A stretch of 64,000 nucleotides of DNA, from NCBI RefSeq assembly GCF_009834535.1, contig NC_045696.1, positions 32,304,001-32,368,000 on the forward strand. The letters are read 5' to 3'. The stretch is from Camelus ferus. Lineage: Eukaryota. The notes under the pieces were generated by a model, which saw only the letters and a list, made by a program, of their open reading frames with translations, ran no database searches and was not told where the DNA came from. Position numbers and translations under genes: made by a program. Below, piece after piece: positions 3,266 to 61,220 of this stretch; position 1 is the first letter of the stretch, and each line of letters begins with the position of its first letter.

Positions 3266-3961
3266 AGACAGAAAGAAGGGAACGCAGGGTGCTAGGAGGG
3301 TGAGATCAACTCTTAGTGAAAACTGTAAATATCTATTAGGATTAAATTTGCCTGCATGTATTAGAAACATGGATTTAAATAATATATCATTCCCAGTGAT
3401 TTGTGGTTTAAAAGTAATCTCTAAGAAAAACTAATTTCATTACAGAGCTTATTCCCAATTTTATAGGAAAAACTATCAGGATACGTGTCTGTGTTACCTC
3501 ACAGTGATGACAACTTTTCATTCTATATATAATGGAAAAATTGACCAGATTTGAAAAACATCTTACAACTAGACAACTGAAAACTTACTCTGATTAATTA
3601 AATTAATTCTAATAACCACTTATGTAAATAATACAAGTTCTAAGTCAACATAATTGCATGCCACTTTAATTGTTCATCTCTCTTATTAAAATTTTTTTAG
3701 TTATTAAAAAGATTGTGCTTCTTAAATAAAGTGGATTTCAAGTATCAAAGCATCAAATTTTATACTTTCATGTACTATGCTTTTTATAAACATGAGGAGG
3801 TAAATACATATTTTATGGGGGAGAGTTTTGGAGGATTTTGAAAATACTGATCTTTAATGATCAGTGTAGTTGTTTGGAAAGTGATTGTCATATAATTAAT
3901 TACCATTCTCCCTTTAAAATTGGCTTTGAATTATTGTATTTTATTTGATTTTTTTGAAAAA

Positions 3962-4138
3962 TACTTTGGGTTCTAACACTAGTCCCACCATTTACCACTA
4001 TTATGTTTTTTTAATATAAAAATAGAAATAATAATAACATCTCTTGATAGCACTATTTTCAGGATTAACTGATACAGTTTATGAAAATCTTCTCTTCTGG
4101 CTTGGTACATTATAAATTCAAGATATGTAGCTATTTTT
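3962..4138 (+). mobile_element. MIR SINE (decayed)
   Basis: 'tgggttctaacactagtcccaccatttacca...aaaatagaaataataataacatct...aggattaactga...gcttggtacattata' follows MIR order. Confidence 0.6.
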
Positions 4139-4405
4139 CTAAAAATATATCAATTTTTATTGGCAATAAAATCATTTACTATTGTGCTAATTTCTCAAGG
4201 AGAGGAAAGAACCCTCTAACTCTCCAGAATTTTCCTTAAAAACTTACCAGTTTGCCATAATTTACATCCTAGAAGGGAATACAATCTCATTTTAATGAGT
4301 ATATAGTAAACAACTAATTTCTGTACGTTATTTTTCACTTCTTATGTCAAGTTTTGTAATTTCAGATCAAACCATTCTCATCATTTTAATACTTATTTGT
4401 GACAG

Positions 4406-4496
4406 GGAAAAACGATGTAGAAAGAATTCCGGAAAGAAAACAATGTGGTCTCAGACCACTGAAGAACAGCAACTTCTGGTGATTCAGCTCCCGGAG
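4406..4496 (+). other. FOXP2: Candidate 91-nt non-coding (5'UTR) internal exon; tentatively the FOXP2 upstream exon s3 ortholog
   Basis: Seen: acceptor 'ttctcatcattttaatacttatttgtgacAG' (4404-4405), purine-rich body with 3 CpGs, and donor GAG|GTTAGA at 4497. The gene name rests only on my recollection of a 91-nt upstream untranslated FOXP2 exon of similar sequence, plus the exon-free ~59 kb that follows. It is not database-verified. The exon itself is better supported (~0.7) than the name. Confidence 0.45.
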
Positions 4497-4739
4497 GTTA
4501 GAGGAGTGAAGTAATAATTTCCCTTGGGATAACCTGTCTTTCCTCTGAGCTCTTTGAATGTAGGGAAAGGCCCAAAGGGAAAAGTCAAGTAGCTGATCAA
4601 CAGCTTAGATGACAGTGAACAAATACTTGACTAGAACATTTGTTTTAATTAAGTAATTTGATAAAGTATTGTCCAAGGTAATGCATTTGGAATATTAAGA
4701 TACTTTGTTCAGGTGGCTAAGTTGATTATTTCCTGCCAG

Positions 4740-4777
4740 GTTTGTTTGTTTGTTTGTTTACTTATTTATTTATTTTA
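4740..4777. repeat. (GTTT)n/(ATTT)n simple repeat
   Basis: gtttgtttgtttgtttgtttacttatttatttatttt seen directly. Confidence 0.9.
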
Positions 4778-4955
4778 AGTAAGTTGACATAGAAAATAAA
4801 AGACCTTCCTAAAATCTTAACAATGTAAAATCCTCAAATATAATTGACTTTGCAAAATTGTTGTATAAATATACATATCAAAGTGCAAGGCAGTAAGGAA
4901 TGCCCTTTTATATTACGATGCTCCTTGAATGTAACAAAACATTAAGTATATTAAA

Positions 4956-5069
4956 TACTAACCATTATCCTTCTTTCTTTTCTCTTACAGGTGAGTAACT
5001 GAAGGTTAAAATCAGAGTTCCTGGATATGAAGTATTATATGCTTTTTTATTAGTGTCCTGTGGGTAAGT
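4956..5069 (+). promoter_or_regulatory. Candidate recursive splice site with 73-nt RS-exon (4991-5063)
   Basis: TACTAAC at 4956-4962, AG-free pyrimidine tract, CAG|GTGAGT at 4990/4991, downstream donor TGG|GTAAGT at 5063/5064. Confidence 0.55.
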
Positions 5070-6254
5070 AAAGAAACAGACTTGGCTTAAGCACCAGATT
5101 GAATGCTGAATCATGCAAAAGACATAAATTAGTGAGGAGTTGGGCACTCTGTCACTGGGAGACATGATCAAATATTGAAAACTATTTAAAGTTAGGCCCA
5201 TAAGTACTGAGGGCTGAATATTTTCTTATTTTTATGTTTTGTAATTGTGTCATTCAGAACTAGTATGCAAGTAAATTAGACTGCTTTATATTCGAATGCC
5301 AATGACTTGCTCTGATACAGTTAGTGTCAGTGGATGTTACTTCAAATGGAAGATTGTTTAAAAAATGTAACTGGAGATGTGATTTTGACTATTCCAGCTA
5401 TTAACACTGAAGAGTCTATAAAATGGTAAAAAATAAAATTATATTAAGTCTAGAAATAAACTGCTTTACTGAAAAACCTATAGAAATTAGATTTTTAATC
5501 TTGGAAATATGATAGATTTCATTTTTTTAACCAATGTAATATTAAATATAGATCAAATGGAGCACACTCACAGTGGGTTAATATTTAAGAACAAGATCTT
5601 GAGAGAAAATGAATCATTCTACTCTTAAAATCTAGTAGAAAAACCTTTCAAATTATTTTATTAAAAGGGCTTTTATAGAATTAGTTTGGGAATTGTTTTC
5701 TTTTGTCAGTCATTTTTTAACAAATGCTATTTGGTCCAAGTTATTAGAAGTATTTAAAATAAATGACTCTTCAAAAATCATTTAAAAGGAGAAAACAGCT
5801 TTTACTGTGAAATCCAAATGTCAGCAAAGGCTTCTTTACTAAATATATAATTGTATTCATGGAGGTTATTAGTGCACATTGAAATTTATGAGCTGGAAAT
5901 CTATTTCAAAAAATGAAAGTATTAGTTTCCTTAAAATTTGATTGTAGCATTAATAAATTATGTTATTTAAAGAATATATTCTGGAGAATGTATCCTTACG
6001 GTATGGATGAATGAATCATCAGATTTCTAATGTGATTGCATGATGCCATTTTGTAAGGAATTTTTTCTTTTCCTTTTCTTTGTCTGCTTCTGGTTTGCTA
6101 GCATTCATAAAATATGATATTGGTTTTGCTACCAAATTTAAGTAAAGTAAGATGATAAATATTTTAGACAAAAGTTTAGTTTTTTATATTGTTGCTTTAT
6201 TTAATATATTGTTAAGCATGGAAGAAGATAGAAAAGAACTAGGTATTTTTTTCT

Positions 6255-6356
6255 TTTTTAAAATTTTTTAAATTAATTAATTGATTTATTTAACATTTTT
6301 ATTGATTTATAATCATTTTACAATGTTGTGTCAAATTTCAGTGTAGAGTACAATTT
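6255..6356 (-). mobile_element. ~100-bp 5'-truncated camelid-type L1 with TSD
   Basis: T-rich tail then 'ttttattgatttataatcattttacaatgttgtgtcaaatttcagtgtagagtacaattt'; flanked by actaggtatttttt(t)ct at 6238-6254 and 6357-6372. Confidence 0.85.
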
Positions 6357-8329
6357 ACTAGGTATTTTTTCTATGTTTACATTTATGACTTTGTGTTTCT
6401 TGGCATGATATATTTTTTAATATGAAAAAAGCTATTTCTTGAAATGATTTACTTGTGATAGGATTATGTATTTACTTTAATTCCTGAAAATTATTTGTGA
6501 AGTTTATAGAAATTAACAAAATGCGTACCAGTGCTATCATGTCTCAACTTCTGATGTAATACTCTTGTCCATAAAATACTTAATTGGACCAACATCAATA
6601 ACATATTCAAGCTCATCAGTCTAGGGTAATGGCTCTTATTTTGGTGGTGATTAATATGACAAAATGAATGATCTGGGGACACTTCTAATAGGGAACTTGT
6701 CCCTGAGTTTGGTACAGCATTCTCAAGGGGACAAATCTACCAGGTTAGTTCTTCTGAGATTAAGCTGTTTCAAAATTCTGCTTATTTTCTCAGTCTGCTA
6801 GGACACCTAGTAAAGAAGGTTTTGTTTTGGATGATATATACACCTATTATTTCAAAATTTGTCATCATTTTAATGTTATCACAATATTTACTCATAAATA
6901 TTTGGGGCTAAATTGTCAAAATTTGATGAAGTAGCATAAATTTTGAGCATATAGAAAAGTAAGATAAGTGTTGGAATTGAACCTCTTTTATTTTTTGAGA
7001 ATTAGTTCCTAGGCATCCATGTGTTTAATTATAAGTGTATAGATTTAACTTACTCTTGAGATTGACAGGAAAGCAGCAATAAAATTTTATTAAGCATCAT
7101 AAACCTACAAGTATGACCTCCATGTAACATCAACAAAAGTCCAGAGCTTCAAAAATAAGAGAATATTGAAAAGCAGATTAGACTAGATGATGATAGGACA
7201 TTCATTGCTGATGAAATGCATGATAAGGCTTTGATTTTAGGGAACATTCGGCTTTATGAAAAGAAATGCTCTGGGGAGAAGAATTACAGTAGGCACAAGT
7301 TTTTAAAAGACAGTTTAAAGTTGATATGTAATACACAGGAGACTTTAGATAACTGAAATATTTTTCATTCAATGAAAATTCAGTTTTCATCCAAAATGTA
7401 CTTGGCTTATAAAATAGACTCTTAGGATAATATCAACTGACTGATGTTCTTTGTTCAAGAATGGGCAGTAATCTTAGTTTAGATGTTCAGCTGGTCAACA
7501 AAACATAGTTGATAAAATAATTTAGGTTAATTATACCAGTAGATACTATCATCAAAATTATTAAAGATATTCATTTTTTGGTAGATATATATTATCAAAA
7601 AGCACATTTTCTATTAATTTCAAATTTAAATAAGCTAAAAAATATCCTCATCTCTTTTAGGCATATGGTTTAATTAATTTTAAAAAATTACATTTCTGGA
7701 GAATTATATTCTGTGAAGGAAAAGCTAAATGCATCTACTCTATCCAGAACTAGCATACTAGAAATTTACTTGAAAATATTCACAATCCAATCTTCCTCTC
7801 TAGACCTTTCTTTTGAGTATCTTGTGAAAGGTGATTCAGCTGATAATAATAGAACAGCTGCATGCCCAAGATAACATCCCTTAGTCAAGAATCTTATTTC
7901 TTATATAGTTAAGGAAATCAAAATTTCAATTTGAATATTTCTTATATACTATTTGGGACTCAGGAGAGTTTTTATATAAAGTATTTCTAAGTATTCTCAT
8001 GAAGTAGTGTATATAAAACTTTTCTACGTGGACTTCTCAACTATCTATATAAAAACATGTTATAGGATGTCAAATTAATACCATATAAGTTCTCTTTTTT
8101 TTTTCTGTTAAGTTGTATGTATTTCTTTTTGTTGTTACATTTGCTCTGAGTTTTTTTGTTGTTGTTTGTTTTTTGTTTTTAATATAGGGGGAGGTTTGTG
8201 TTTTCAGAGTGGTGAAAAGGACAGTATTGCTATATAGTCCTCACTTTGTAAATAAGCTAGATTTTATTTGGAAAATATAAAGCTTATTGTTTAAAGAAAC
8301 ATCATAAAATTCACTTCTCACCTTTACAA

Positions 8330-19200: not shown

Positions 19201-19304
19201 TGTTTCCTCTCTTTGTTGCCTAGCATCATACGTCTCTAACTGAACTGAACTTACTTGCTGTGTGACCTAGAGTTTCCTTAGATATAAATTGGGAGTAACA
19301 GTAC

Positions 19305-19734
19305 TGCGTGGGTCAGAGTCCTGTCGAGAAAGAGATTGAATAATGTAAGTAATTAAATTGTGTTTAAGGAGAATTTAATAAAGGGTTTATTTATAAATGT
19401 GGGAAGGATACAGTAAGACTAGAAGACTAGCACAGTACAATGTTAGTAATAATAGGAGGTCCTGACCATCCCTGCACCCAAAGCGGGTAGGGGATGAACA
19501 ATTTGTGAAATTGGATAAAAAGGGATATGGAGTTGTACAGGAAAGGCTGTTTAGGGGGAACTCTGATGTTTTTAGTTGAAGGACGTGGCCAGCTGAGGAA
19601 ACAGATGCCCTGATATCCCTCTCCTTCCTTCCTGTCTCCAGCTGGTATTTCCTAATGGCCAGTCTCACCCAAGAGCCAGAGCCAGCGCAGGTCAGACTCT
19701 GGGACTAAAAGTCAGTTTGTGAAGGGTGATGGCA
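19305..19734 (-). mobile_element. ERVL solo LTR, LTR41-like, inserted into a MIR
   Basis: 'tgcgtgggtcagagtcctgtcgagaaagagat...aggagaatttaataaagggtttattta' matches the recalled antisense LTR41 end; MIR sequence on both sides (19250-19304 and ~19735-19770). Confidence 0.7.
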
Positions 19735-58003: not shown

Positions 58004-58137
58004 TTGTATTATGGGGGGAGGAGATTAGGTTTAATTATTTATTAACTTTTTTTTTTACATGGAGGTACTGGGGATTGAACCCAGGACCTTGTGCATGCTA
58101 GGCAAATACTCTACCACTGAGCTATAACTTCCCCACA
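58004..58137 (-). mobile_element. tRNA-Ala-derived camelid SINE (Vic-1-type) with 15-bp TSD
   Basis: Minus strand: 'ggggaagttatagctcagtggtagag...cctagcatgcacaaggtcctgggttcaatccccagtacctcca' (A and B boxes) plus an 'aaacctaatctcctcccccc' tail; TSD aaat[a/t]gtgtattttg at 57989-58003 and 58138-58152. Confidence 0.92.
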
Positions 58138-60984: not shown

Positions 60985-61220
60985 AATTTCATCATGACCC
61001 CCGACTCTGATTTCCCACAGAATTTATTACCTCTTCCACTCCTTTGGCAGTTCACATACATAACTCTTTATTATCATGTGCCTTCTTTTTATATGCTCTT
61101 TCTTTCTGATTATACTGTAAGTCCTTGAAGGACATAGGCTTTTACTTATAAATCTTCATTCCTATAGTAAAACACAATACCTTTGTTCAAGGTAGGTGAT
61201 AAATTATTTGTCAATGAAGA
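60985..61220 (+). mobile_element. L2 3' end
   Basis: 'attatactgtaagtccttgaaggacatagg...aacacaatacct...gtaggtgataaattatttgtcaatgaa'. Confidence 0.75.

What the first reader, a model, noticed from the sequence alone, without database searches (positions are those of the whole stretch)
4956..5069. Textbook recursive splice site and RS-exon 494 nt after a weak-donor exon
Seen: a perfect TACTAAC branch point (branch A 4961, about -30), an AG-free pyrimidine tract, CAG followed immediately by the donor GTGAGT, and a second strong donor TGG|GTAAGT 73 nt later. Established: vertebrate recursive splicing in very long introns uses a juxtaposed 3'ss/5'ss defined by a downstream RS-exon. Inference: removing the short intron 4497-4990 would replace the weak GAG|GTTAGA donor with a strong GAG|GTGAGT before the very long intron. 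This 'donor upgrade' would be invisible in mature mRNA. I do not know of a report of it at this locus, but cannot exclude that it is annotated as a minor exon.
Basis: partly seen in the sequence, partly recalled or inferred. Interest (0 to 1): 0.75.

Follow-up and report, generated by a model that had tools for sequence, protein, structure and literature searches.

The report
Known CADM2 recursive splice site RS1

Summary
All four motifs are at the stated coordinates and are far above chance. The window lies in intron 1 of CADM2 in a camelid genome. The site is 239,477 nt after exon 1 and about 494 kb before the first Ig exon.

It is the orthologue of the published CADM2 RS1/RE1:
- Mouse Cadm2 RS1 has a 73-nt RS-exon, reconstituted donor AAGGTGAGT (MaxEnt 10.47) and RS-exon donor TGGGTAAGT (10.24), with 317 exon-1 junction reads.
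- Human RE1 is also 73 bp.
- Camel has the same two 9-mers, the same length and 20/23 identity to a mouse RS-exon primer.

So the "recursive site plus RS-exon" reading is right, but it is already known in human, mouse, rat and zebrafish.

The 91-nt "exon" 494 nt upstream has splice signals matched by 133 other pseudo-exons on the + strand of the window. Joined to exon 1 it would bring a stop codon. It is in 0 of 99 CADM2 proteins.

No camel RNA could be examined.

The scan has flagged recursive-site candidates in other genomes but none in CADM2.

The parts
4956..4962 (+). Candidate branch point TACTAAC (branch A at 4961, position -30)
   Evidence: TACTAAC occurs only 4 times on + and 8 times on - in 64 kb. 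Its use as a branch point is inferred; its conservation could not be tested.
4963..4990 (+). Pyrimidine tract without AG, and the 3' splice site CAG (AG at 4989-4990), of recursive site RS1
   Evidence: no AG and 89% pyrimidine over 4962-4988; top acceptor of 3,903 AG sites by a rough matrix. The mouse orthologue has 3'ss MaxEnt 12.33. The tract sequence itself differs from mouse by more than 3 of 21 bases.
4991..5063 (+). RS-exon RE1, 73 nt. Its first six bases, GTGAGT, become the intron half of the reconstituted donor AAG|GTGAGT after joining to exon 1
   Evidence: Length 73 nt, as in mouse (chr16:67364176-67364248) and human (RE1 73 bp). The last 23 nt match a mouse RS-exon primer at 20/23, with 0 of 100 shuffles matching. 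There are stops in all three frames; read from exon 1 it gives G-E-stop.
5064..5069 (+). Native donor of RE1, TGG|GTAAGT. It defines the RS-exon and competes with the reconstituted donor
   Evidence: The 9-mer is identical to mouse 'Down 5'SS' TGGGTAAGT, MaxEnt 10.24. It ranks 22 of 3,199 GT sites by the rough matrix.
4406..4496 (+). Listed for completeness; most likely not an exon
   Evidence: Acceptor rank 303/3,903 and donor rank 115/3,199. 133 equally good pseudo-exons on + and 107 on -. Stop codon if joined to exon 1. 0 of 99 CADM2 proteins carry it.

Best explanation
The element is the camelid orthologue of CADM2 recursive splice site 1 (RS1) with its 73-nt recursive exon RE1, in the roughly 733-kb stretch between exon 1 and the first Ig exon.

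Mechanism, shown in human and mouse by the cited papers and inferred for camel:
1. Once transcribed, RE1 is recognised as an exon through its very strong acceptor (branch point, pyrimidine tract, CAG) and its own donor TGG|GTAAGT.
2. Exon 1, which ends ...CAAG, is joined to 4991. This removes 239,477 nt.
3. The junction creates the donor AAG|GTGAGT. That donor outcompetes RE1's own donor, so RE1 leaves together with the next segment. That segment runs 249.7 kb to RS2, or further to the next exon.
4. No trace is left in the mRNA.
5. [quoted passage not shown]
For: Gene identity:
- A downstream exon translation is 100% identical to 'cell adhesion molecule 2' of many mammals (E 2e-28; 99 hits with E <= 1e-10 among 111 candidates).
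- A 444-aa CADM2 protein maps exon by exon on the + strand of C1. Exon 1 is at 32,069,453, the window at 32,304,001-32,368,000 and the first Ig exon at 32,802,530.

Orthology:
- Mouse Cadm2 RS1 has motif AGGTGAGT, a 73-nt RS-exon, r5'SS AAGGTGAGT (10.47) and down 5'SS TGGGTAAGT (10.24). It has 317 upstream and 22 downstream junction reads, and its upstream exon is 256 kb away.
- In human, RE1 is 73 bp, lies 279 kb after exon 1, holds a premature stop, and has a native donor weaker than the reconstituted one.
- Camel has the same 9-mers, the same length, a distance of 239.5 kb and an in-frame stop.
- The mouse RS-exon primer matches 5041-5063 at 20/23.
- The mouse-derived pattern hits this site and only one other place in 2.09 Gb.
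- The second known site, RS2, was found 249,771 nt downstream with the mouse 9-mers AAG|GTAAGC and AAG|GTAAAA.

Function elsewhere: deleting RS1 in human neurons abolishes exon1-RE1 splicing and lowers CADM2 expression by 23%.
Against: - No camel RNA was examined. The runs found hold shares of the stretch that track their contig size, so they say nothing about expression.
- Conservation rests on what two papers print for mouse and human: 9-mers, length, one primer and 20 nt of the tract. No alignment of the whole region across species was possible.
- The pyrimidine tract differs from mouse by more than 3 of 21 bases.
- TACTAAC could not be checked in other species.
- The key paper, Sibley 2015, is not held.
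Confidence: 0.9

Rival explanations
1. One reading: 4406-4496 is a real exon with a weak donor (GAG|GTTAGA). Removing the short intron 4497-4990 swaps that donor for the strong GAG|GTGAGT before the long intron ('donor upgrade').
For: The motifs exist. The junction would give GAG|GTGAGT, which is as strong as AAG|GTGAGT by the rough matrix (8.49 vs 8.41) and by U1 pairing (-12.4 vs -12.3 kcal/mol). Recursive sites can serve several upstream exons in other genes (the PDE4D example). Recursive splicing in short introns has been reported.
Against: The 91-nt stretch is at chance level: 133 (+) and 107 (-) equally good pseudo-exons in the window. Its acceptor tract is poor (score 0.45 against 13.23 for RS1). 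After exon 1 it reads into TGA at codon 26, so it cannot be part of productive CADM2 mRNA. It is in 0 of 99 CADM2 proteins. The documented partner in mouse and human is exon 1.
Confidence: 0.04
2. The 73-nt unit is an ordinary cassette or 'poison' exon that is usually included or regulated, not a recursive intermediate.
For: RE1's own donor is strong (10.24). Mouse shows 22 RE1-to-downstream junction reads. Human transcripts retaining RE1 were assembled, and RE1 can splice to RE2.
Against: RE1 has stops in all frames, and read from exon 1 it stops at the third codon. RE1 abundance in human RNA is low, and exon1-RE1 junctions are intermediates enriched in nuclear/total RNA. The mouse ratio is 317 upstream to 22 downstream reads. 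0 of 99 proteins contain RE1 6-mers.
Confidence: 0.04
3. Chance cluster of splice-like motifs in AT-rich intronic DNA, not used.
For: AT-rich long introns contain many GTAAGT (15 on +) and GTGAGT (17 on +) hexamers.
Against: The top-ranked acceptor and the top-ranked donor of the window coincide at one base. The site matches the published mouse and human site in 9-mers, length and position. The genome-wide pattern count is 2.
Confidence: 0.01

Closest known systems
Human CADM2 RS1/RE1. Sibley et al. 2015, Nature 521:371 (not held; known here only through citations). Boone et al. 2025, bioRxiv 10.1101/2025.08.14.666599 (I read the abstract, the Introduction, Results part 1 of 4 and found passages)
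   Same: Same gene and same intron. RS-exon of 73 nt. Premature stop in the RS-exon. Reconstituted donor stronger than the RS-exon donor. First of two sites; position 279 kb (human) against 239.5 kb (camel) after exon 1.
   Different: Only the species. The human sequence itself (their Fig. 1g and Fig. S5) could not be seen, so base-by-base identity to human is untested.
Mouse Cadm2 RS1, chr16:67364249 (PMC8797253; I saw found passages, supplementary files 4 and 5 in full, and rows of files 1 and 3)
   Same: AGGTGAGT core, r5'SS AAGGTGAGT, down 5'SS TGGGTAAGT, 73-nt RS-exon. 20/23 identity at the 3' end of the RS-exon.
   Different: Mouse has TAG and camel CAG at the acceptor. The pyrimidine tract sequence has diverged. 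The first segment is 256 kb in mouse against 239.5 kb in camel.
CADM2 RS2/RE2, the second recursive site, overlapped by an alternative exon used from a minor promoter
   Same: Same intron and same architecture. Found in camel at C1:32,558,762.
   Different: A different site, outside the window. RE2 is 42 nt in mouse and human and can be retained in frame. RE1 is 73 nt and always brings a stop.
Drosophila ratchet points with cryptic RS-exons (Hatton 1998; Duff 2015; Joseph 2018; as cited)
   Same: A juxtaposed acceptor and donor in a long intron, defined through a short downstream exon.
   Different: Fly sites are far more numerous (197 against 10 in human, quoted). They are not homologous to this site.
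Intrasplicing in protein 4.1 genes (Parra 2008, named in the review PMC5126111).
   Same: A first, local splice creates a new donor that is used for the next step.
   Different: There it couples promoter choice to acceptor choice. Nothing here shows that the 494-nt 'intron' is ever removed on its own.

Membership tests
Vertebrate recursive splice site with RS-exon (Sibley type) | Acceptor directly fused to a donor (YAG|GTRAGT) inside a very long intron | tested here: met
   CAG|GTGAGT at 4988-4996. It lies 239,477 nt after exon 1 and about 494 kb before the first Ig exon.
Vertebrate recursive splice site with RS-exon (Sibley type) | Strong acceptor: pyrimidine tract, a zone free of AG, and a branch point | tested here: met
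   89% pyrimidine, no AG, and TACTAAC at -30. Rank 1 of 3,903 AG sites by the rough matrix. MaxEnt was not computable here.
Vertebrate recursive splice site with RS-exon (Sibley type) | A second donor shortly downstream that defines an RS-exon | tested here: met
   TGG|GTAAGT 73 nt downstream. The same 9-mer scores MaxEnt 10.24 in the mouse table.
Vertebrate recursive splice site with RS-exon (Sibley type) | The donor reconstituted with the true upstream exon is strong, and at least as strong as the RS-exon donor | tested here: met
   Exon 1 ends AAG, which gives AAG|GTGAGT. The same 9-mer scores 10.47 against 10.24 in the mouse table. U1 pairing is -12.3 against -11.9 kcal/mol.
Vertebrate recursive splice site with RS-exon (Sibley type) | The RS-exon carries a premature stop, so inclusion is unproductive | tested here: met
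   Exon 1 joined to RE1 reads G-E-stop. There are stops in all three frames.
Vertebrate recursive splice site with RS-exon (Sibley type) | Upstream-exon-to-RS junction reads and a saw-tooth read depth in total or nuclear RNA | not testable with these tools
This is shown only for the mouse and human orthologues.
Orthologue of CADM2 RS1/RE1 | Lies in CADM2 intron 1, on the sense strand, as the first of two sites | tested here: met
   Searches give the gene and strand. RS2 was found 249,771 nt further on.
Orthologue of CADM2 RS1/RE1 | Sequence agreement with the published site | tested here: met
   Both 9-mers and the 73-nt length are identical to mouse, and the length matches human. The primer matches at 20/23. 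The full human sequence was not seen.
   Its signals are at chance level (133 and 107 equal pseudo-exons). It gives a stop after exon 1. It is in 0 of 99 CADM2 proteins. RNA evidence was not obtainable.

The most novel reading that the evidence does not exclude
The 'donor upgrade' idea may hold for the true partner. Camel exon 1's own donor is AAG|GTAATC, with T at +5 and C at +6; its U1 pairing is -6.6 kcal/mol. After the first step the same exon carries AAG|GTGAGT (-12.3 kcal/mol) for the remaining ~490 kb. RS1 and RS2 also cut the intron into three nearly equal parts (239.5, 249.8 and 243.8 kb). Recursive sites might therefore be selected both to strengthen the donor and to equalise segment length.

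Caveat: similar GTAAT donors score about 8.5-8.9 by MaxEnt in the mouse table, so the native donor may not be weak.
Probability: 0.15. Interest if true: 0.35.

Novelty: already known. Interest (0 to 1): 0.15.

Why it matters
CADM2 RS1 is one of the few vertebrate recursive splice sites with functional and disease data. Rare human deletions of it are associated with ADHD, and removing it lowers CADM2 expression. Finding it intact in a camelid, with both donor 9-mers and the 73-nt length unchanged, adds a small piece of evidence that the architecture is under selection across mammals. It does not change what is known. The useful outcome is that a reader working from sequence alone can pick out a genuine recursive site, while the partner exon it inferred nearby was a false lead.

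Tried and rejected
- RNA evidence. The look-up of sequencing runs listed 24 runs.
- Orthologues from other species. A metagenome scan with AGGTGAGT-N64-TGGGTAAGT gave 29 loci. None aligned to window 3500-6500 beyond chance pieces of at most 42 nt with E >= 0.048.
- Earlier notes of this scan. 'near' and 'relatives' gave nothing, and no note mentions CADM2.
- Sibley 2015 (PMC4471124) is not held.
- The mouse RS2 pattern with N33 gave 0 hits in the genome. The reason is that camel RE2 is 43 nt.
- The mouse exon-1 primer did not match L006 within 3 mismatches. Exon 1 was placed by protein match instead.
- The mouse intron-end primer did not match the window within 3 mismatches.
- Rfam found only a tRNA-like match far from the site.
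- True MaxEntScan scores for the camel acceptors, for GAG|GTTAGA and for AAG|GTAATC could not be computed. I used a rough matrix from recalled frequencies and U1 duplex energies instead.

Full report
**Observation**

- TACTAAC is at 4956-4962, with branch A at 4961, position -30.
- The 27 nt up to the acceptor are 89% pyrimidine and hold no AG.
- CAG at 4988-4990 is fused to GTGAGT at 4991-4996.
- TGG|GTAAGT has its GT at 5064, so the unit 4991-5063 is 73 nt.
- Upstream, 4406-4496 (91 nt) is flanked by ...gtgacag|GG and GAG|GTTAGA.

This is far above chance.
- CAGGTGAGT occurs once on + and never on - in the 64 kb.
- I scored sites with a rough weight matrix built from recalled human frequencies, not MaxEnt. 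The acceptor at 4990 is the best of 3,903 AG sites on + and the donor at 4991 the best of 3,199 GT sites.
- The joint score of this AGGT is 22.8, against 11.2 for the runner-up among 205 (+) and 185 (-) AGGT sites.
- Only one acceptor-donor pair in the window reaches RE1's quality, and it is 4991-5063.

**Where it lies**

Earlier notes of this scan said the genome is a camelid and that this chromosome starts with human-chromosome-21 genes. That was only a lead.

The window is G000:C1:32,304,001-32,368,000, and the stretch is single copy apart from a simple repeat. A GBE1-type CBM_48 exon lies at C1:29.67 Mb. C2-set Ig exons lie on the + strand at 32.876 and 32.894 Mb. Their translation is 100% identical to 'cell adhesion molecule 2' of many mammals (E 2e-28; 99 hits with E <= 1e-10 among 111 candidates).

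A 444-aa CADM2 protein (P0014) maps exon by exon on the + strand.
- Exon 1 (MIWKRSAVLRFYSVCGLLLQ) is at C1:32,069,453.
- The first Ig exon (aa 26-80) is at 32,802,530.
- The remaining exons run to 33,010,048.

Exon 1 ends ...CTACAAG|GTAATC at C1:32,069,513, in phase 1. The site at window 4991 (C1:32,308,991) is therefore inside CADM2 intron 1, on the sense strand, 239,477 nt after exon 1.

**What it is**

CADM2 is one of the few vertebrate genes with proven recursive splicing.

Boone et al. (bioRxiv 10.1101/2025.08.14.666599) report the following for human:
- There are two sites, RS1 and RS2, in the 767-kb first intron.
- RE1 is 73 bp and RE2 is 42 bp.
- RE1 starts 279 kb after exon 1.
- RE1 holds a premature stop, and its own donor is weaker than the reconstituted one.
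- Deleting RS1 abolishes exon1-RE1 splicing, flattens the saw-tooth read depth and lowers CADM2 expression by 23%.

I read that preprint's abstract, Introduction, Results part 1 of 4 and found passages. Its supplements are closed, so I did not see the RE1 sequence in Fig. 1g and Fig. S5.

The mouse study PMC8797253 prints, for Cadm2 RS1, chr16:67364249:
- motif AGGTGAGT;
- 20 upstream bases, with 3'ss MaxEnt 12.33;
- RS-exon chr16:67364176-67364248, which is 73 nt;
- r5'SS AAGGTGAGT (10.47) and down 5'SS TGGGTAAGT (10.24);
- 317 upstream and 22 downstream junction reads;
- upstream exon end 256 kb away.

For that paper I saw found passages, supplementary files 4 and 5 in full, and rows of files 1 and 3.

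Camel gives the same reconstituted 9-mer (exon 1 ends AAG, then GTGAGT), the same downstream 9-mer and the same 73-nt length. MaxEnt 5'ss scores depend only on the 9-mer (methods passage), so the mouse values carry over.

Further support:
- The mouse RS-exon primer matches window 5041-5063 at 20 of 23 bases, with 0 of 100 shuffles matching.
- The mouse-derived pattern AGGTGAGT-N64-TGGGTAAGT has 2 forward hits in the 2.09-Gb genome, this site and one unrelated place on C34. The reversed control gave 1.
- Read from exon 1, RE1 gives G-E-stop, and it has stops in all three frames.
- The second known site was found with a mouse primer at C1:32,558,762...ttttag|GTAAGC...CATCAAG|GTAAAA. That is 249,771 nt after RS1 and 243,768 nt before the first Ig exon.

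**How it most likely works**

1. RE1 is recognised as an exon through its acceptor and its donor TGG|GTAAGT.
2. Exon 1 is spliced to 4991, which removes 239,477 nt.
3. The new junction AAG|GTGAGT then serves as the donor. RE1 and the next segment are removed together and leave no trace in the mRNA.
4. Use of RE1's own donor gives a transcript with an early stop.

Shown here: the anatomy in camel and its match to the mouse and human sites. Shown elsewhere: use of the site, its competition logic and its effect on expression. Inferred: use in camel.

The idea was that a 91-nt exon 494 nt upstream is the partner and that RS1 'upgrades' its weak donor. The evidence is against it.
- The 91-nt stretch has an acceptor ranking 303 of 3,903 and a donor ranking 115 of 3,199.
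- 133 pseudo-exons on + and 107 on - in the same window score at least as well on both signals.
- After exon 1 it reads GKNDVERIPERKQCGLRPLKNSNFW-stop.
- No 6-mer from any of its frames occurs in the 99 CADM2 proteins retrieved.

What speaks for it is only that GAG|GTGAGT would indeed be strong, and that recursive sites can serve more than one upstream exon in other genes. Without RNA data, rare cryptic use cannot be excluded.

**Results against, and gaps**

- No camel RNA could be laid. The runs are not evidence.
- No orthologous DNA from other species could be fetched. The 29 metagenome matches were all chance.
- The pyrimidine tract differs from mouse by more than 3 of 21 bases, so its composition is conserved but its sequence is not.
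- Conservation of TACTAAC is untested.
- Sibley 2015 is not held. I cite it only through other papers.
- My matrix scores rest on recalled frequencies.

**Novelty**

This is already known as CADM2 RS1/RE1 in human, mouse, rat and zebrafish. A 2026 preprint even counts four recursive sites in human CADM2 (found passages only). The camel copy is simply an orthologue.

The scan has flagged many recursive-site candidates in other genomes (49 findings hold the words), but none mentions CADM2.

A modest idea is left open. For the true exon 1 the first step does replace AAG|GTAATC by AAG|GTGAGT, and the two recursive sites cut the intron into near-equal thirds. Whether either property is selected is untested.

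Noticed in passing
L036:1501-1543 (G000:C1:32,558,762-32,558,804), outside the window: Camel RS2/RE2 of CADM2. The recursive exon is 43 nt here against 42 nt in mouse and human: camel has one extra G (TGGTAT where mouse has TGTAT). If RE2 is retained, as in the gibbon isoform with the insert GKHINHSSVIRLHQ, the camel frame would shift. This may be a real lineage difference or an assembly error.
   Followed up: partly
G000:C1:32,069,513 to 32,802,530 (exon 1 to first Ig exon): RS1 and RS2 divide the camel intron into three nearly equal segments of 239.5, 249.8 and 243.8 kb. The human values from the preprint are 279, 273 and 214 kb, the last measured to exon 2.
   Followed up: no
L006:3511-3519 (G000:C1:32,069,511-32,069,519): CADM2 exon 1's own donor is AAG|GTAATC, with no G at +5. 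Its U1 pairing is -6.6 kcal/mol against -12.3 for the donor reconstituted at RS1. True MaxEnt was not computed.
   Followed up: partly
window 58060-58131 (-): Rfam tRNA match (50 bits, E 1e-07) deep in the intron. It is probably the tRNA-derived head of a SINE rather than a tRNA gene.
   Followed up: no
window 19224-19486 and 61051-61191 (+): These are the only other sense-strand acceptor-donor pairs in the window with acceptor score >= 8 and donor score >= 4.7 by the rough matrix. They are possible cryptic exons of CADM2 intron 1.
   Followed up: no
That suggests genome-wide coverage rather than specific expression.
   Followed up: no
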